64,000 nt of DNA from Candidatus Woesearchaeota archaeon (GCA_964495875.1 CAZBWB010000001.1:315122-379121), one strand, 5' to 3'; counted from the first letter of the stretch, positions 3,443 to 7,930 are shown. The notes: generated by a model from the letters alone, not told the origin. Translations and numbers: made by a program.

Positions 3443-3862
3443 ATGATGAAAAAAGAACTGAAGGAAAAATTCGTTCCGATTTTGGTTGGAATAATCTTTG
3501 ACCCAAGTAAAAGAAAAATTCTGATTGGAAGAAGAGAAAATGACCCATTTGTTTCTGGATTAACTTGGTGTTTTCCTGGAAGAGAAGCAAGTTATAAAGA
3601 AGAATTAGAAGAGACATTAGAAAAAGAGATAAAAATTCAAACAGGGCTTAGAGTTAAAAGCCTTGGTGCAGTATATGCAAGAATATTCAAAGAAAAAAGA
3701 GACTTCTTAGTCATATACTACTTATGTGAGATAATCAATGGGGAAGAGAAAGCAGGAGGTTCAATTAAGGAACTAAAATGGGTTAAACCAGAAGAACTTG
3801 AAAAATATTTTACAACTTCTTTTCACCCCACATTAAAAGAATATATCCTAAATTTAAAATAA
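3443..3862 (+). CDS. NUDIX-family hydrolase (probable)
   Basis: 139 aa with an approximate Nudix box PGREASYKEELEETLEKEIKIQTGL (G-x5-E-x7-..E.E..G). The 3' end overlaps the convergent EndoQ-like gene by 9 nt. Confidence 0.5.
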   Translation: MMKKELKEKFVPILVGIIFDPSKRKILIGRRENDPFVSGLTWCFPGREASYKEELEETLEKEIKIQTGLRVKSLGAVYARIFKEKRDFLVIYYLCEIINGEEKAGGSIKELKWVKPEELEKYFTTSFHPTLKEYILNLK

Positions 3863-6166
3863 AGTTGATTGTTTTTCTTCTAATAAGGCTTCACCATAAA
3901 CTCCGTCATAACCTGGCTTAATCCTTATTCTCTTTTCCCTGTTTTTGATGATTAATTCAACAATTTTTTCATTTACTCCCTGCCTAATCAATTCTTCTCT
4001 TGAAACATTTAGTAAAATATTAAATTCATTTCCAAATAAATCAATGAGAGAGTTATAAACCTCCCATACTTTACCGCTTTGCATACTGCTTCCTATTACT
4101 AAAGAAATTAATTCATGTAATGGCAAAAGCTTGAAAAAAGGTTTGGCATTTTCTGACTTAAATCCTTTTGGATTTGTTGCTAATTGTTCTACTCTGTTAT
4201 CAACACCAATAGTGAGTGGTTTTTTGCAAACAGGGCAAATTCCATTAAGCTCTTTGCTTTTAGCAGGAGAACAAGAAAAATCGCAAATCCTATGTCCGTC
4301 CCAGTGATATTTGCCATAAGCAGGGTCTGTCTCAATTGTAGATATAAAAGTCTTGTTTCTTATCTGTTCTATGATCTCTGCATAAGAGTCTGTTTTCTTA
4401 AATATAGTTGCTTCTCTGCCAATTCTAAAAGGCCAGAAACTATGTGCATCAGAAAAACTAACAATTGCTTTACTTCCAAGTTCAGAAATTCTCCAGTTCA
4501 TCTCAGGGTCAGAGTTCCCGCACCAAACAGGAATTCCATTTCTCCGAACATAAATAACTCTATTAGGAACTGAAACACAATAAACAAAACCATCATAATT
4601 TTCCCAGCGTTCAATATATTTTTTCTTCAATGTGGAAGGCATAACAGTATGGATATTTTTTCTGATAAAATGAATACTCCAAGAATCTTCAGATTGTTTA
4701 TAACTTTTCATTTTAGCTTTAGGCAAAGAAGTAATCTGGGTTCCTTTTTTATTATGTAATTTATAATAAGCAGAAATTCCAATCTTTAAAGCAACTTCTT
4801 GCAAATCATCTCTCAAATGCTTGGAAATTGTCGTGGCAGATAATCCTTTTTTGTTTCTTCCGTATATATGCCCATCGCCTTTAATATAATAATCAAAAAA
4901 AATCTCCAAAAGTTCCTTAGACAAAAATTTTATTTCTTGAGGAATAAATTTTTTACTTGACTTCCCAAATTTATTCAAATAAGAAAACAATTGATAATCT
5001 CTTATTCTTATGGTTTTTAATCCTCGATTAATATAAACATAAGGTTGATAACCAAAACTAACAAGAATTTCTTTCATTTCTTTCATTAAATAGTTGTCTG
5101 AATTTGCGAGATAAACTCCATAATCACCATTTTTTCCCTCTGTAGTCCATCCCTCTGCTAACCAAAACCCAAAAAATTTTAACCACTTACCTATCTCAAA
5201 TTTTTTCTCTTTTTTATTCCTATCCCCAAAATGATACTTATTTCCATGCTTAATTTTAACAGAAGGTAAAATAAAAGATTTTTTATCTTCTCCAATCCAA
5301 ATTCCATCTTTCTTAAATCTTTTAGACTTTCCAATAATTTCTTCAGCTTTTTTCAAGATAAAAGAAGGAGTTTTTCTAAAATCACAATGACTAACTAAAA
5401 GATTATGATTGGGAGTTGCAAATAAATCAACCCTTTTAGTCTTCAGCCTGTACATCTTACCTTTGTAATCATATTTAAATAACTTAATTGGTTTTTGAAA
5501 CTCTATAAAGTCTTTATCAACATTCAGGGTGCAAATTTTGTCATATATCTCTACATCTGAAACTCTTTTCCATCCATTATTGGTTAGAACTTCTGTTTCT
5601 GAATCATAACAAGACATGCCGGTTTCAATTGCATGAATATTATCAAACTGCTCCTTAAAACATTCTCTTAAACTGTCAAATCCTGACATACTGCCAAATA
5701 AGCCAAACCAAGGTGTCCATATGTGTGCAGGAATAATCTCTATTTGTGAAGAAATGTTCATCATATCCTTAACAAACTCATCACCAGGAATCTTAAAAAT
5801 CGGTCTGCCATCATAATCTCTCCTCCCTTTAGTATCAAGATAAGAATTAATTTTCTCTGCAATCTCAATATTTGGAACTAGAATGACTAAATGAATTCTC
5901 CTTCCTTTATCTTGGGTGTAAAATAAAGAAATCTCGCCTGAAATTATAAATGGAAAATCCTGGAAATAATAAAACCCATTTTTCTCCACAAGTTTTTCTT
6001 TAATCTCGTTAAACCAAATGGGATGAGTAAAATCTCCTGTGCCGAGAAGATTAAGTCCTTTTATTTTTGCCCATTTAACAAGACTTTCAAGATCAATTTT
6101 GCTGCTGCATGCTCTTGAAAATCTGGAATGTATATGTAAGTCAGCAATCAGCCAGTTCTCTTCCAT
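3854..6166 (-). CDS. EndoQ-like PHP-domain endonuclease interrupted by an intein
   Basis: N-terminal PHP motif ADLHIHSRFSRA ... LLGTGDFTHP, and C-terminal Zn-finger-like H/C cluster YHWDGHRICDFSC ... CPVCKK. The host protein is 404 aa after removing residues 186-551, close to the characterised ~420-aa Pyrococcus EndoQ as I recall it. Confidence 0.7.
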   Translation of the reverse strand: MEENWLIADLHIHSRFSRACSSKIDLESLVKWAKIKGLNLLGTGDFTHPIWFNEIKEKLVEKNGFYYFQDFPFIISGEISLFYTQDKGRRIHLVILVPNIEIAEKINSYLDTKGRRDYDGRPIFKIPGDEFVKDMMNISSQIEIIPAHIWTPWFGLFGSMSGFDSLRECFKEQFDNIHAIETGMSCYDSETEVLTNNGWKRVSDVEIYDKICTLNVDKDFIEFQKPIKLFKYDYKGKMYRLKTKRVDLFATPNHNLLVSHCDFRKTPSFILKKAEEIIGKSKRFKKDGIWIGEDKKSFILPSVKIKHGNKYHFGDRNKKEKKFEIGKWLKFFGFWLAEGWTTEGKNGDYGVYLANSDNYLMKEMKEILVSFGYQPYVYINRGLKTIRIRDYQLFSYLNKFGKSSKKFIPQEIKFLSKELLEIFFDYYIKGDGHIYGRNKKGLSATTISKHLRDDLQEVALKIGISAYYKLHNKKGTQITSLPKAKMKSYKQSEDSWSIHFIRKNIHTVMPSTLKKKYIERWENYDGFVYCVSVPNRVIYVRRNGIPVWCGNSDPEMNWRISELGSKAIVSFSDAHSFWPFRIGREATIFKKTDSYAEIIEQIRNKTFISTIETDPAYGKYHWDGHRICDFSCSPAKSKELNGICPVCKKPLTIGVDNRVEQLATNPKGFKSENAKPFFKLLPLHELISLVIGSSMQSGKVWEVYNSLIDLFGNEFNILLNVSREELIRQGVNEKIVELIIKNREKRIRIKPGYDGVYGEALLEEKQSTLF
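4514..5611 (-). mobile_element. Intein (366 aa) with LAGLIDADG homing-endonuclease domain inside the EndoQ-like gene
   Basis: - Block A: CYDSETEVLTNNGW, starting at Cys186 (codon 5611-5609, verified on the DNA).
- Block B: TPNHNLLV.
- LAGLIDADG motifs: FFGFWLAEGWTT and FFDYYIKGDGHI.
- Block F: FVYCVSVPN.
- Block G: NGIPVWCGN, followed by the +1 Ser of SDPEMNW.
- The extein junction reads AIETGMS | SDPEMNW. Confidence 0.8.
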
Positions 6167-6226: not shown

Positions 6227-7930
6227 TTATTTCTTTCTCTTCTTAGCTGCAAATCCACCGCCAACAATCACTGCTACTAAGATAACACCAATTGTAATCC
6301 ATAGCCACAAAAGATTTCCTGCTGCAGCTTCTTCCTCTTCTTCATAACCTTTCTCTGCAATAGCAAAATAACTGAAACTTGTTAACTGAACATCATAATA
6401 GTAATAACTGTCATCTTCTTCTTTATATACTGTTGACAATTCATCCCACTTTCCTGCAGATTCATCAAATCTATACAGAGCAATATTAGCTTTGTCTATA
6501 TTATTATCCAATAACCAATCCTTCTGCACTTTAATTGTAAGTGTAGCTTTATCTAATTTATCTCCTAGATTTTCTGATTCAATTTGTAAATACTTATGAA
6601 CATTTCCTGCCTTTGAAACAGTAATTTCCTCTGGCTGAGTATCAAATTTCTTAACTGTAATTTTCACATTACTTGCTGCTTCTTTAACTGTAACTTTTAT
6701 CTCTTTTACTCCCATATCTTCTTGGAAATTAGATAGCACTACTTCTTCACCAGGAGTTGCAGCCGCTATTACATTTTTCTTTTCAACTGTTGTAGAAGGT
6801 CCTTCTACACCAGGACTACTACTATCACTACATGAAAGTGTAGAAAAACTAGTTGAATCTGAGTTCGAACTATGACCTACTTGATCATAACAAGTAACAA
6901 TATATGAATAAGATGTGCCACAATTTAATCCAGTATGGGTTAAGGTCTGAGTTCCTGTTCCTCTTCCAGTAATAGCAATATTAGAACCTCCAACAGTACA
7001 CTGATCAATCCCACTTCCATTTCCTGCCGCAGCATCAATAGCAGTAATTGTAATCACATTTTGAGTCTTTGTACTTCCCGTTCCACGAGTTAAAACAACT
7101 GAAGATGGAGCAGTATCGTCAATTGTTATTTGAATATATTCACTATTATTAAGATGAACTGCATTTGAAAGAGTATCATTCATGCTATCATTAGCATAAA
7201 CAGTGATATTATATTTTCCATCAGGATAATCTGTGACATTAATAGTAGTATTGTAAAAAACACCAATACTAGTCTTGTTTCGTGCTCTTGTCCAATTATC
7301 TTTTGGTGCTCGCCCACCACTTGAATTAGTAACATTAATATAAACAAAAGTAAAATTAACACCATAAACAACATCATATGCGCTCACATTTATGTTAATA
7401 TTTCCAGCATTCGCAGAAGTATAATTTCCATTATTAACTACAGAAGAAGTAGTGCTTGTAAAATTAACTGCTGGAGGAATGCTATCAAAAGTTACATTTT
7501 TAACAGATGTCCAATTTTGAGAACTTCCATTATTTGCAATACAACTAACATTATATAGTCTTCCAGATAAGCTACTAATATCTATTATACGAGTAAAATT
7601 TGTTCCATTTCCCCCAGCACTACCATTCCACATAACAGGCGTTAAATTACCAAAATTAGCTGTATTAGTCATATTAAGGTTCTCGATTGGTCCTCCACTT
7701 GCATTATAGAAACACGTTACATTAAAACTCGTTGCTGTAGAATTAAGTGCTGTTGTAAGATTTAAAACTATAGTTCCAGAATAATTTCCTCCATCTATTA
7801 AACTATCATTAAACTGAATAGGAGCACTAGTAGGTATTGCAGTAATAAACCAAGCACCCAAAACAATAACTAAGATTGTCCCAAAAAATATATTCATCAA
7901 AGTCTTTGCATCAAATTTTTTATTCACCAT
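6227..7930 (-). CDS. Surface (S-layer-like) glycoprotein with PGF-pre-PGF-like C-terminal module and TM anchor
   Basis: N-terminal signal/anchor, dozens of N-x-S/T sequons, and Ig-like repeats. The C-terminal module is VHKYLQIESENL ... WDELSTVYKEEDDSYYYYDVQLTSFSYFAIAEK, followed by a hydrophobic helix and KKRKK. This module is homologous to the C-terminus of the 3169-aa protein. Confidence 0.6.
   Translation of the reverse strand: MVNKKFDAKTLMNIFFGTILVIVLGAWFITAIPTSAPIQFNDSLIDGGNYSGTIVLNLTTALNSTATSFNVTCFYNASGGPIENLNMTNTANFGNLTPVMWNGSAGGNGTNFTRIIDISSLSGRLYNVSCIANNGSSQNWTSVKNVTFDSIPPAVNFTSTTSSVVNNGNYTSANAGNININVSAYDVVYGVNFTFVYINVTNSSGGRAPKDNWTRARNKTSIGVFYNTTINVTDYPDGKYNITVYANDSMNDTLSNAVHLNNSEYIQITIDDTAPSSVVLTRGTGSTKTQNVITITAIDAAAGNGSGIDQCTVGGSNIAITGRGTGTQTLTHTGLNCGTSYSYIVTCYDQVGHSSNSDSTSFSTLSCSDSSSPGVEGPSTTVEKKNVIAAATPGEEVVLSNFQEDMGVKEIKVTVKEAASNVKITVKKFDTQPEEITVSKAGNVHKYLQIESENLGDKLDKATLTIKVQKDWLLDNNIDKANIALYRFDESAGKWDELSTVYKEEDDSYYYYDVQLTSFSYFAIAEKGYEEEEEAAAGNLLWLWITIGVILVAVIVGGGFAAKKRKK

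What the first reader, a model, noticed from the sequence alone, without database searches (positions are those of the whole stretch)
3854..6166. LAGLIDADG intein inserted in an EndoQ-like DNA repair nuclease
The 770-aa ORF is a PHP-domain, Zn-finger protein of the EndoQ type, interrupted by a 366-aa intein (residues 186-551, DNA 4514-5611). The intein sits within the conserved ETG(M/L)S|SDP stretch, which is consistent with the intein preference for active-site motifs.

All splicing blocks are present: Cys1, TPNH, two LAGLIDADG motifs, and a terminal Asn followed by +1 Ser. The penultimate residue is Gly (WCGN) rather than the usual His. I do not recall EndoQ being listed as an intein host.
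Basis: partly seen in the sequence, partly recalled or inferred. Interest (0 to 1): 0.6.

Follow-up and report, generated by a model that had tools for sequence, protein, structure and literature searches.

The report
Homing intein splitting EndoQ repair nuclease
A DNA-repair nuclease gene (endonuclease Q) of a tiny DPANN-type archaeon is interrupted, right beside its damaged-base pocket, by a self-splicing, self-spreading protein insert (an intein with its own homing endonuclease); the call is correct, but the same insert at the same site is already common in public metagenome data, so it is an ordinary example.

Summary
ORF 3854-6166 (-) encodes a 770-aa precursor, and residues 186-551 (DNA 4514-5611) are a 366-aa intein (Cys1, TPNH, two LAGLIDADG motifs, ...WCGN|S).

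- **Host gene:** with the insert removed, the 404-aa extein aligns without a break to Pyrococcus EndoQ (E 1e-45). The predicted fold matches it at TM 0.86.
- **Insertion site:** it corresponds to Pfu S171|A172, at the end of the lesion-pocket loop E167-L170.
- **Empty site:** four same-genus genomes keep the same gene order and an uninterrupted IETG(M/I)S|SDPEMNWR site.
- **Family features:** all 120 best database homologues carry this intein at the identical site, and all end GN|S. Penultimate Gly is therefore a family trait, not decay.
- **Mobility:** carriers include DPANN archaea and CPR bacteria, one on a contig with bacterial-type genes. Inteins are more alike (mean 67%) than their exteins (52%), and the intein tree rejects the CPR host clade (AU p 0.0014). 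This points to cross-domain mobility.
- **Known host family:** Methanocaldococcus relatives (MJ0043 type) carry an unrelated intein at a different site (PAH|C).

This scan has flagged EndoQ inteins on other DNA at least 38 times. Verdict: real, probably active, a new member of a known kind.

The parts
3854..6166 (-). Whole precursor gene: EndoQ homologue with in-frame intein (770 aa plus stop)
   Evidence: ORF list. The gene order aIF2alpha-(NUDIX)-EndoQ-surface protein is kept in same-genus relatives.
5612..6166 (-). N-extein, residues 1-185. PHP-domain half carrying metal ligands H11, H13, E78, H92 and H148, and the lesion-pocket loop E181-T182-G183-M184-S185
   Evidence: Alignment to PfuEndoQ. 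Ligand and pocket residues come from PMC5961232. These positions are invariant or nearly invariant in 96 homologues.
4514..5611 (-). Intein, residues 186-551 (366 aa): HINT splicing domain with a nested LAGLIDADG homing-endonuclease domain
   Evidence: AF2 model mean pLDDT 88.9. Foldseek matches to 7qsu, 7qst, 1ef0, 2cw7 and 1dq3.
3854..4513 (-). C-extein, residues 552-770 plus stop. Holds +1 Ser552, the SDAHS motif (D573, H575), the Zn ribbon and the C-terminal helical domain
5609..5611 (-). Block A nucleophile Cys186 (intein Cys1)
   Evidence: Cys in 117 of 117 aligned inteins.
5405..5416 (-). Block B T-P-N-H, residues 251-254 (Thr B:7, His B:10)
   Evidence: T, P and H are present in 117 of 117; N in 115 of 117.
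4751..5194 (-). Homing-endonuclease domain, approximately residues 325-472
   Evidence: Secondary structure of the model. I-DmoI matches at TMt about 0.66 over 187 columns. LAGLIDADG_3 matches in two stretches.
5144..5182 (-). LAGLIDADG motif 1, LKFFGFWLAEGWT (residues 329-341), with the acidic residue Glu338
   Evidence: Position 338 is E in 113, D in 3 and G in 1 of 117.
4868..4900 (-). LAGLIDADG motif 2, FFDYYIKGDGH (residues 423-433), with the acidic residue Asp431
   Evidence: Position 431 is D in 112 and N in 5 of 117.
4547..4591 (-). Block F, GFVYCVSVPNRVIYV (residues 526-540). F:4 is Cys530. F:13 is Arg536, which is His in most relatives
   Evidence: Position 530 is C in 106 and S in 11 of 117. 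Position 536 is variable: H 69, K 18, Q 16, R 10.
4511..4540 (-). Block G plus the +1 residue: NGIPVWCGN|S (residues 543-552). Penultimate Gly550, terminal Asn551, +1 Ser552
   Evidence: G550 and N551 are present in 117 of 117; C549 in 116 of 117. All 120 homologues end GN|S.
5717..5731 (-). Unoccupied second intein site of the family: P-A-H|I-W (residues 146-150; His148 corresponds to Pfu His139)
   Evidence: This site is occupied in Methanocaldococcaceae (GPAH|CVPP...TLHN|CFTPW). It is also occupied in the two-intein proteins P0019, P0088, P0114 and L065.
4226..4294 (-). Zn ribbon, H625-x2-C628 ... C644-x2-C647. PfuEndoQ has four Cys here
   Evidence: Alignment to 5zb8. H625, C644 and C647 are invariant and C628 is at least 90% conserved.

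Best explanation
This is a functional, class-1-type bifunctional intein sitting in the native EndoQ gene of a small-genome DPANN archaeon.

What is shown:
- The gene is an in-frame fusion of N-extein, intein and C-extein.
- The intein carries Cys1, Thr/His of block B, a C-terminal Asn and a +1 Ser.
- The two extein halves together make a complete EndoQ.

Inferred splicing mechanism:
1. After translation, Cys186 makes a thioester at the Ser185-Cys186 bond.
2. [quoted passage not shown]
3. Asn551 cyclises and releases the intein, without help from a penultimate His. Gly550 is fixed in the whole family, so other residues must assist; candidates are the conserved Cys549, Cys530 and Asn535.
4. An O-to-N shift gives a 404-aa EndoQ with the restored ...ETGMS-SDPEM... 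loop.

Inferred effect on the host enzyme:
- The insert separates metal ligands H11, H13, E78, H92 and H148 and the pocket loop from D573 and H575.
- The precursor should therefore be inactive until it is spliced.

Inferred mobility:
- The released intein is a LAGLIDADG endonuclease with both catalytic acidic residues, E338 and D431.
- It should cut intein-less alleles at the ETGMSSDPEM-coding DNA and copy itself in by double-strand-break repair.
- The sporadic distribution among close relatives and the discordance between intein and extein trees are what such homing, including transfer between bacteria and archaea, would produce.
For: - **Anatomy and coordinates:**
- **Contiguous extein:** it matches PfuEndoQ (E 1.6e-45, query 8-398 against chain 5-384) and TIGR00375 (positions 2-373 in one stretch).
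- **Fold:** the AF2 precursor model has pLDDT 88.9, with low confidence only at the two junctions, one internal loop and the C-terminus. The extein halves superpose on 5zb8 at TMt 0.86-0.87. The insert matches HEN-bearing inteins at TMt 0.62-0.65 (7qsu, 7qst), and the endonuclease core matches I-DmoI at about 0.66.
- **Site:** the insertion follows the residue equivalent to Pfu S171. The lesion pocket comprises H139, T142, E167, L168, G169, L170, N191 and D193 (PMC5961232).
- **Empty site:** 26 of 30 relatives, including all four same-genus genomes, have an uninterrupted 404-435-aa frame. Same-genus exteins are 77-82% identical, with IETG(M/I)S|SDPEMNWR intact. The central 30 bases of the site are 23-27 of 30 identical. 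Gene order is kept. The window's extein nests among the intein-less same-genus sequences.
- **Purifying selection:** splicing and endonuclease residues are conserved over 117 inteins.
- **Decoupled evolution:** intein identity stays flat at 65-70% while extein identity runs from 35 to 80%. Between close hosts the intein is the more diverged part, and between distant hosts it is the less diverged part. The CPR extein clade has 100% support on the extein tree and is rejected on the intein tree (AU p 0.0014).
- **Bacterial carrier:** the P0104 contig carries sigma-70, DksA and peptidoglycan-binding genes.
- **Non-His penultimate residue:** inteins that splice without His G:6 are cited in the review PMC4031507, which also says Cys is the second most common F:4 residue.
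Against: - No experiment shows splicing or DNA cleavage for any member of this allele.
- Two assisting residues usually present are missing in this copy: His G:6 is Gly and His F:13 is Arg.
- The nearest intein in the databases is only 73% identical, so no recent donor is visible.
- Transfer is inferred from trees and identity patterns only.
- The 120 homologues were selected by similarity to the whole precursor, which may bias the intein and extein identity comparison.
- Only 16 of these sequences carry organism names, and those come from metagenome bins.
- The extein scores below the curated TIGR00375 cut-off (189.7 against 326.6 bits), so it is a divergent EndoQ whose substrate range is not known.
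Confidence: 0.85

Rival explanations
1. The intein still splices, but its homing endonuclease is dead or no longer has targets. On this reading it is a fixed passenger, kept only because imprecise loss would destroy EndoQ. The conservation of the intein would then reflect the need to splice, not mobility.
For: - The nearest relative of the intein is only 73% identical, so there is no sign of a recent move.
- On the intein tree, the window's copy groups with copies from the same host family, and the AU test does not reject that clade (p 0.32). This fits local vertical descent.
- In the phylum sample only 2 of 401 genomes carry a copy above 60% identity.
Against: - The endonuclease motifs are as conserved as the splicing blocks: E338 in 113 and D431 in 112 of 117. 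The endonuclease domain has not been lost in any of the 120 carriers, whose inteins are 361-371 aa long.
- Carriers and empty sites interleave within one genus and family.
- The CPR host clade is rejected on the intein tree.
Confidence: 0.2
2. The intein is a conditional switch. Splicing, and therefore EndoQ activity, would be gated by conditions such as redox state, for example through a disulfide between Cys186 and the conserved Cys549 or Cys530. The element would then be partly domesticated as a regulator of repair.
For: - Cys549 (G:5; 116 of 117) and Cys530 (F:4; 106 of 117) are conserved next to the catalytic centre, and the usual His G:6 is absent in all copies.
- The insert splits the active site, so the precursor should be off until spliced.
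- The intein sequence is more conserved than its host.
Against: - Nothing here tests this reading, and no model coordinates were available to measure Cys-Cys distances.
- Most close relatives do without the intein, which argues against a needed regulatory role.
- The same WCGN family sits in unrelated host genes: an aminotransferase, PurD-like proteins and NrdD. The Cys residues are therefore a family trait, not an EndoQ-specific adaptation.
Confidence: 0.1
3. The intein is decayed and no longer splices, so the EndoQ gene is in effect inactivated.
For: - This copy has a non-canonical Gly at G:6 and Arg at F:13.
- This is a reduced genome in which repair genes can be lost: 4 of 30 relatives showed no EndoQ match.
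Against: - The 2313-base frame is open with no stops.
- All nucleophiles are present.
- Gly G:6 is invariant in 117 of 117 copies, so it is not a lesion of this copy.
- All extein catalytic residues are intact.
- A review cites inteins that splice without His G:6 (PMC4031507).
Confidence: 0.05

Closest known systems
'Mja hyp1' intein of Methanocaldococcus jannaschii MJ0043 (the name is from my memory of InBase and Swiss-Prot). Tested here on five unnamed Methanocaldococcaceae genomes.
   Same: - The host family is the same (TIGR00375; Pfam PF27218 'MJ0043_C').
- It is the same kind of element: a roughly 390-aa LAGLIDADG intein in the PHP active-site region, with Cys1 and a terminal Asn.
   Different: - The site differs: GPAH|C, after the metal-ligand His equivalent to Pfu H139, against ETGMS|S here.
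- The ending is canonical, HN|C, against GN|S here.
- The two inteins are only 21% identical.
- In those genomes the window's site is intact (VELGLSADTDM).
- That G037 is M. jannaschii itself is inferred from its 1.7 Mb size and the gene's position near 43 kb, not shown.
The same EndoQ ETG(L/M)S|S intein allele in public metagenome-assembled genomes (P0001-P0120). NCBI annotates these as 'LAGLIDADG family homing endonuclease' or 'hypothetical protein'; JGI annotates them as 'PHP family Zn ribbon phosphoesterase'.
   Same: They share the identical insertion site, a length of 361-371 aa, the GN|S ending in all 120, and 58-73% intein identity.
   Different: - The hosts range from the window's own family to Micrarchaeota, Aenigmatarchaeota, Bathyarchaeia-type archaea and CPR bacteria.
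- None is a near-identical copy.
- I found no paper that describes the allele.
Solved homing-endonuclease inteins: TliVMA (7qsu, 7qss), PhoVMA (7qst), PI-SceI (1vde, 1ef0, 1lws), PI-TkoII (2cw7), PI-PfuI (1dq3)
   Same: They share the architecture of a HINT domain with a nested two-motif LAGLIDADG domain. Foldseek gives E 1e-15 to 2e-10 and TMt up to 0.65.
   Different: - Sequence identity is 11-17%, and there is no sequence-level hit in the PDB.
- Their host proteins are different.
- Penultimate Gly replaces the usual His G:6 (residue conventions from PMC4031507).
Pyrococcus furiosus endonuclease Q (5zb8, 7k30-7k33)
   Same: - The extein shares the PHP domain, Zn-binding domain and C-terminal helical domain.
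- All Zn ligands (H8, H10, E76, H84, H139, D193), plus R114 and H195, have equivalents.
- E is 1.6e-45 and TMt 0.86.
   Different: - Pfu has no intein.
- The Zn ribbon here is His-Cys3, not Cys4.
- Pocket residues L168 and L170 are Thr and Met here, and N191 is Phe.
- The score is below the TIGR00375 cut-off.
- The cited paper limits EndoQ mostly to Thermococcales and some methanogens, whereas here it is common in DPANN (27 of 31 genomes).
Inteins that splice without a penultimate His (Chen, Benner and Perler 2000, cited in PMC4031507)
   Same: The residue at G:6 is not His, while the other class-1 nucleophiles are present.
   Different: That paper was not readable here. My recollection that one of its inteins has Gly at G:6 is memory only.

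Membership tests
Intein (class 1, HINT superfamily) | In-frame insertion in a conserved host protein that is absent from orthologues, with the exteins contiguous once it is removed | tested here: met
   - The extein aligns as one stretch to PfuEndoQ and TIGR00375.
- 26 relatives have the uninterrupted gene.
- The empty site is shown at protein and DNA level.
Intein (class 1, HINT superfamily) | N-terminal Cys or Ser nucleophile, and block B Thr-x-x-His | tested here: met
   Cys186 and T251-P-N-H254 are invariant in 117 aligned copies. intein_Nterm scores 26.6 bits, above the 24.5 cut-off.
Intein (class 1, HINT superfamily) | C-terminal Asn followed by Cys, Ser or Thr at +1 | tested here: met
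   Asn551|Ser552. All 120 homologues end N|S.
Intein (class 1, HINT superfamily) | Penultimate His (G:6). This is common but not obligatory | tested here: not met
   Gly550 is present in 117 of 117 copies. The review PMC4031507 calls His G:6 an assisting residue and cites inteins that splice without it.
Intein (class 1, HINT superfamily) | HINT fold | tested here: met
   AF2 model with pLDDT 88.9. Foldseek matches to 7qsu, 7qss, 7qst, 1ef0, 2cw7 and 1dq3 at probability 1.00. The Pfam Intein_splicing match is weak, 24 bits against a 35.8 cut-off.
Intein (class 1, HINT superfamily) | Autocatalytic protein splicing | not testable with these tools
   This needs expression of the precursor and detection of ligated extein and free intein.
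Class 3 intein (Trp B:12 / Cys F:4 / Thr G:5, no residue-1 nucleophile) | WCT triad and lack of Cys1 or Ser1 | tested here: not met
   Cys F:4 is present (C530), but B:12 is Leu256, G:5 is Cys549 and Cys1 is present. Class definition from PMC4031507; the exact B:12 and G:5 positions of the triad are from my memory.
LAGLIDADG homing endonuclease (single-chain, two-motif) | Two LAGLIDADG helices, each ending in a catalytic acidic residue | tested here: met
   The motifs are ...FWLAE338GW and ...YYIKGD431GH. LAGLIDADG_3 matches at E 2e-14 in two stretches. The acidic residues are conserved in 116 of 117 (E or D) and 112 of 117.
LAGLIDADG homing endonuclease (single-chain, two-motif) | Fold of the endonuclease core | tested here: met
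   Matches to I-DmoI (2vs8, 4ut0 and others) at TMt 0.62-0.68 and to I-Tsp061I (2dch).
LAGLIDADG homing endonuclease (single-chain, two-motif) | Site-specific cleavage of the intein-less allele | not testable with these tools
   Candidate targets exist: the same-genus empty sites are 23-27 of 30 bases identical to the joined flanks.
Endonuclease Q (TIGR00375 / Pfam MJ0043_C family) | PHP-domain Zn ligands and essential residues (Pfu H8, H10, E76, H84, R114, H139, D193, H195) | tested here: met
   The equivalents are H11, H13, E78, H92, R121, H148, D573 and H575 (alignment; residue roles). All are invariant or at least 90% conserved in 96 homologues.
Endonuclease Q (TIGR00375 / Pfam MJ0043_C family) | Score over the curated family cut-off | tested here: not met
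   The spliced extein scores 189.7 bits against a 326.6 cut-off. Only 1 of 31 genomes in the window's order-level sample passes. The model looks skewed towards methanogen sequences.
Endonuclease Q (TIGR00375 / Pfam MJ0043_C family) | Three-domain fold (PHP, Zn-binding, C-terminal helical) | tested here: met
   TMt 0.85-0.87 and rmsd 3.2-3.5 A to 5zb8 and 7k30.
Endonuclease Q (TIGR00375 / Pfam MJ0043_C family) | Cleavage 5' of dU, dI or abasic sites | not testable with these tools
   Biochemical assay needed.

The most novel reading that the evidence does not exclude
The ETG(L/M)S|S intein is an undescribed EndoQ insertion allele that circulates between CPR bacteria and DPANN archaea. Its fixed, unusual catalytic set (Gly at G:6, Cys at G:5 and F:4) would make splicing conditional, for example redox-gated. 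The selfish element would then double as an on-switch for uracil and hypoxanthine repair in ultra-small cells.
Probability: 0.08. Interest if true: 0.6.

Novelty: new member of a known kind. Interest (0 to 1): 0.27.

Why it matters
In itself it matters little. It is one more intein in a replication and repair gene, which is where inteins cluster, and the host family has carried a catalogued intein since the M. jannaschii genome was sequenced.

Three things are modestly useful:
- **Annotation:** public records call these precursors 'LAGLIDADG family homing endonuclease' or 'hypothetical protein', which hides a complete EndoQ.
- **EndoQ distribution:** EndoQ is far more widespread in DPANN and CPR genomes than the EndoQ literature I read states. 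All lie at the active site.
- **A test case for intein transfer:** this allele is shared by bacteria and archaea, and the inteins are more alike than their hosts. That makes it a clean data set for studying cross-domain intein transfer among co-occurring ultra-small organisms. It is also a natural example of an intein family that works without the penultimate His.

Tried and rejected
- **Sequence search of the intein against the PDB:** no hit at E 0.1 or below. Only the fold comparison linked it to solved inteins.
- **Literature:** searches for EndoQ+intein, MJ0043, COG1379, 'Mja Hyp-1', 'hyp1 intein', and inteins+DPANN/CPR found no paper describing an EndoQ intein.
  - The two 'EndoQ+intein' hits mention the terms separately.
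  - Perler's 1997 compilation and the InBase paper are not held under the PMC ids I recalled.
  - No supplements are held for the Novikova survey.
- **Viral vector:** no relative of the intein was found in viral contigs.
- **Class 3 intein:** considered because of Cys at F:4, and rejected because Cys1 is present and the Trp and Thr of the triad are absent.
- **Same element as the Methanocaldococcus (MJ0043-type) intein:** rejected. The site differs and identity is 21%.
- **Recent acquisition judged by composition:** intein GC is 0.289 against 0.338 for the extein, and GC3 is 0.219 against 0.264. The difference is too small to interpret.
- **Antisense ORF 4184-4573 (+), 129 aa:** it has no support and lies inside the gene, so I treat it as spurious.
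Full report
**1. The observation**

The minus-strand ORF 3854-6166 encodes 770 residues. The insert runs from Cys186 to Asn551, which is 366 aa and DNA 4514-5611. The junctions read ...HAIETGMS|CYDSETEV... and ...IPVWCGN|SDPEMNWR....
- Pfam finds LAGLIDADG_3 twice (E 2e-14) and a weak Intein_splicing match.
- NCBIfam intein_Nterm passes its cut-off on the excised insert (26.6 against 24.5 bits).
- On the precursor, TIGR00375 matches in two pieces (profile 2-166 and 166-373). With the insert deleted it matches as one stretch (profile 2-373).

**2. The host protein**

The 404-aa spliced extein hits only endonuclease Q in the PDB (5zb8 and 7k30/7k31; E about 1e-45; query 8-398 against chain 5-384). 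The alignment runs straight through the junction: ietgmS|Sdpem against lelglS|Adsdm.

Counting along that alignment places the insertion between the residues equivalent to Pfu S171 and A172. The structure paper describes the damaged-base pocket as lined by His139, Thr142, Glu167, Leu168, Gly169, Leu170, Asn191 and Asp193. It gives the Zn ligands as His8, His10, Glu76, His84, His139 and Asp193, with Arg114 and His195 also essential (PMC5961232).
- In the window these are H11, H13, E78, H92, R121, H148, E181-T-G-M184, D573 and H575.
- All are invariant or nearly so in 96 homologues.
- The intein therefore sits one residue after the pocket loop. It separates five metal ligands and that loop from D573 and H575. 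That the precursor is inactive is my inference.
- The Zn ribbon is His-Cys3 rather than Cys4.
- The extein is below the curated TIGR00375 cut-off (189.7 against 326.6 bits), as are nearly all DPANN copies.

**3. Structure**

An AlphaFold2 model of the whole precursor, built with a 96-sequence alignment, has mean pLDDT 88.9. Stretches below 50 lie at the two splice junctions, in one internal loop (511-514) and at the C-terminus. Foldseek against the PDB gives three sets of matches.
- PfuEndoQ comes first, at TMt 0.86-0.87 and rmsd 3.2-3.5 A, with the alignment spanning the insert.
- Homing-endonuclease inteins follow: TliVMA 7qsu (TMt 0.65), PhoVMA 7qst (0.62), PI-SceI, PI-TkoII and PI-PfuI.
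- The free-standing LAGLIDADG enzymes I-DmoI (about 0.66) and I-Tsp061I come next.

The architecture is therefore HINT plus a nested two-motif LAGLIDADG domain inside a complete EndoQ.

**4. Empty sites in close relatives**

The window lies in a 632-kb, 5-contig, 88%-complete genome.
- In 30 relatives of the same genus, family and order, 26 have an EndoQ match. In 25 it is a contiguous full-length match in a 404-435-aa frame; G008 gave only a partial one. Only the window's genome has a split match.
- The four same-genus proteins are 77-82% identical to the window's extein. They read IETG(M/I)S|SDPEMNWR without interruption.
- At DNA level the central 30 bases of the site are 23-27 of 30 identical to the window's joined flanks.
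- The neighbours (aIF2-alpha homologue, surface protein, sometimes a NUDIX gene) are the same.
- On an extein tree the window nests among these intein-less sequences. Intein-bearing metagenome proteins (P0001, P0003, P0007) interleave with intein-less genomes of the same family.

The host gene is thus native, and presence of the intein is sporadic. This is the pattern expected from a homing cycle of gain and loss.

**5. The allele is common in public data**

A search with the precursor returned more than 5000 significant proteins. The best 120 are all about 763-830 aa, apart from three two-intein proteins of about 1150-1200 aa and one partial.
- Every one has the intein at the identical site, is 361-371 aa long and ends GN|S.
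- Over 117 aligned inteins:
  - Cys1, Thr, Pro and His of TPNH, Gly550 and Asn551 are invariant.
  - The catalytic acidic residues of the endonuclease are kept: position 338 is E in 113 and D in 3; D431 in 112.
  - Cys549 (G:5) is kept in 116 and Cys530 (F:4) in 106.
  - The F:13 position is variable: His in 69, and Arg in the window.
The review PMC4031507 lists His G:6 as an assisting residue, cites splicing without it, and says Cys is the second most common F:4 residue.
- It is not a class 3 intein, because Cys1 is present and the Trp and Thr of the class 3 triad are absent.

**6. Mobility, including across domains**

Named carriers include Pace-, Woese-, Micr- and Aenigmatarchaeota and a Bathyarchaeia-type archaeon. 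They also include the CPR bacteria Nealsonbacteria, Wolfebacteria and Patescibacteria, and an Omnitrophica bin. The contig of P0104 (Nealsonbacteria) also carries sigma-70, DksA/TraR and a peptidoglycan-binding protein, so it is bacterial.
- Identity to the window's intein stays at 58-73% while extein identity falls from 76% to 44%.
- Over all 6786 pairs the inteins average 66.9% and the exteins 51.9%. Intein identity is almost flat (64.8 to 69.8%) across extein bins from 35 to 80% (Spearman 0.37).
- For 8 of the 10 best hits (P0001-P0010), whose exteins are the most similar to the window's, the intein is more diverged than the extein. Between distant hosts it is less diverged. A slower clock alone does not explain that crossing; horizontal movement does.
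- The seven-member CPR clade has 100% support on the extein tree. It is rejected as a clade on the intein tree (delta lnL 48, AU p 0.0014). The window's own family group is not rejected (p 0.32).
- Caveats: the set was selected by similarity to the whole precursor, few sequences are named, and the trees are quick searches.
- No copy was found on viral contigs.

**7. What was already known**

By my memory, and in several earlier notes of this scan, MJ0043 of M. jannaschii carries the 'Mja hyp1' intein. I tested this.
- The Pfam family precomputed on these proteins, PF27218, is named MJ0043_C.
- The control line says M. jannaschii matches TIGR00375.
- 5 of 17 Methanocaldococcaceae genomes have the gene in a 785-807-aa frame.
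- One of them (a 1.7-Mb genome, gene near 43 kb) reads ...GPAH|CVPPDTLL...TLHN|CFTPWTSLY..., with intein_Nterm and intein_Cterm matches.
- That intein sits after the metal-ligand His (Pfu H139), ends with the canonical HN|C, and is only 21% identical to the window's intein. The window's site is intact there.
- The same PAH|C site is also filled in the two-intein proteins P0019, P0088 and P0114 and in locus L065. In the window it is empty (PAH|IW).

The host family is therefore a long-catalogued intein host, while the ETG(L/M)S|S allele is a different element at a different site. I found no paper describing it, but it is abundant in databases. This scan has flagged EndoQ inteins on other DNA 38 times in at least 30 genomes.

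**8. The wider intein family**
- A search with the intein alone, against one representative per 50%-identity cluster of the library, gives 1402 proteins at E 1e-30 or below. Their lengths run from about 400 to 3700 aa, often with several inteins per protein.
- In a 401-genome sample of the phylum, only the window's genome and one other (64% identity, a two-intein EndoQ) carry this allele.
- Sixteen more genomes have 30-41% relatives in frames of other lengths. The four I read lie in an aminotransferase, two PurD-like proteins and an anaerobic ribonucleotide reductase.
- Those four also end WCGN, followed by Ser, Thr or Cys.

**9. Verdict**

- The most likely mechanism is ordinary class-1 splicing that restores the EndoQ pocket loop, with Asn cyclisation occurring without His G:6. 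Homing by the LAGLIDADG domain would follow. These steps are inferred; none is shown.
- The finding is a new member of a known kind.
- Its mild points of interest are the undocumented insertion site, the His-less block G fixed across a large family, and the evidence for exchange between bacteria and archaea.

Noticed in passing
L066 (G091:C4), L067 (G326:C72), L069 (G155:C55), L068 (G210:C5): Relatives of this intein (34-41% identity) sit in other host genes of the same phylum. The hosts are a class-III-type aminotransferase (FHGR|CYDEQ...AWCGN|SYG), two PurD-like ATP-grasp proteins (GEMG|CYDDK...WCGN|TSM) and an anaerobic ribonucleotide reductase (LQGE|CYSED...CWCGN|CAG). The host identities were read by eye from the translations, not searched. 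All four keep the WCGN ending with penultimate Gly.
   Followed up: partly
L052 (G037:C1:42755-45112) and four other Methanocaldococcaceae loci, L053-L056: The TIGR00375 profile (positions 1-374) matches residues 386-763 of the MJ0043-type ORF at 742 bits. That stretch includes about 136 residues of the intein's C-terminal part. The model seems to have been seeded with a piece of this protein that contains intein sequence. This may explain why intein-less DPANN EndoQ proteins fall far below its cut-off.
   Followed up: partly
Own genome outside the window: G000:C3:43334-43549 (-), G000:C1:398066-398248 (+), G000:C1:230784-231041 (-): There are three more LAGLIDADG_3 matches in this 632-kb genome. 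One lies in a 1004-aa open frame and is probably another intein-bearing gene. Two lie in 298-aa and 238-aa frames and are probably free-standing endonucleases.
   Followed up: no
window 3443-3862 (+): A 139-aa NUDIX hydrolase gene converges on EndoQ and overlaps its 3' end by 9 bases (3854-3862). It is present at this position in some relatives (L010, L016, L008). It is absent between the aIF2-alpha homologue and EndoQ in three same-genus genomes (L011-L013).
   Followed up: partly
window 6227-7930 (-): A 567-aa predicted surface protein with very many N-x-S/T sequons, a weak Ig-like match, an acidic stretch and a C-terminal membrane anchor ending KKRKK. It is 46-58% identical in same-genus relatives, so it evolves faster than its neighbours.
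   Followed up: no
P0019, P0088, P0114 and L065 (G214:C6): Some EndoQ genes carry two inteins at once, one at PAH|C and one at ETG(L/M)S|S, only about 30 extein residues apart. This resembles the neighbouring-intein situation studied in haloarchaeal MCM (PMC10643990; title and abstract seen only).
   Followed up: no
P0044 against P0035: The extein of the Omnitrophica-labelled protein P0044 groups with an Aenigmatarchaeota protein rather than with the CPR clade. This is either a mis-binned contig or a transfer of the whole gene.
   Followed up: no
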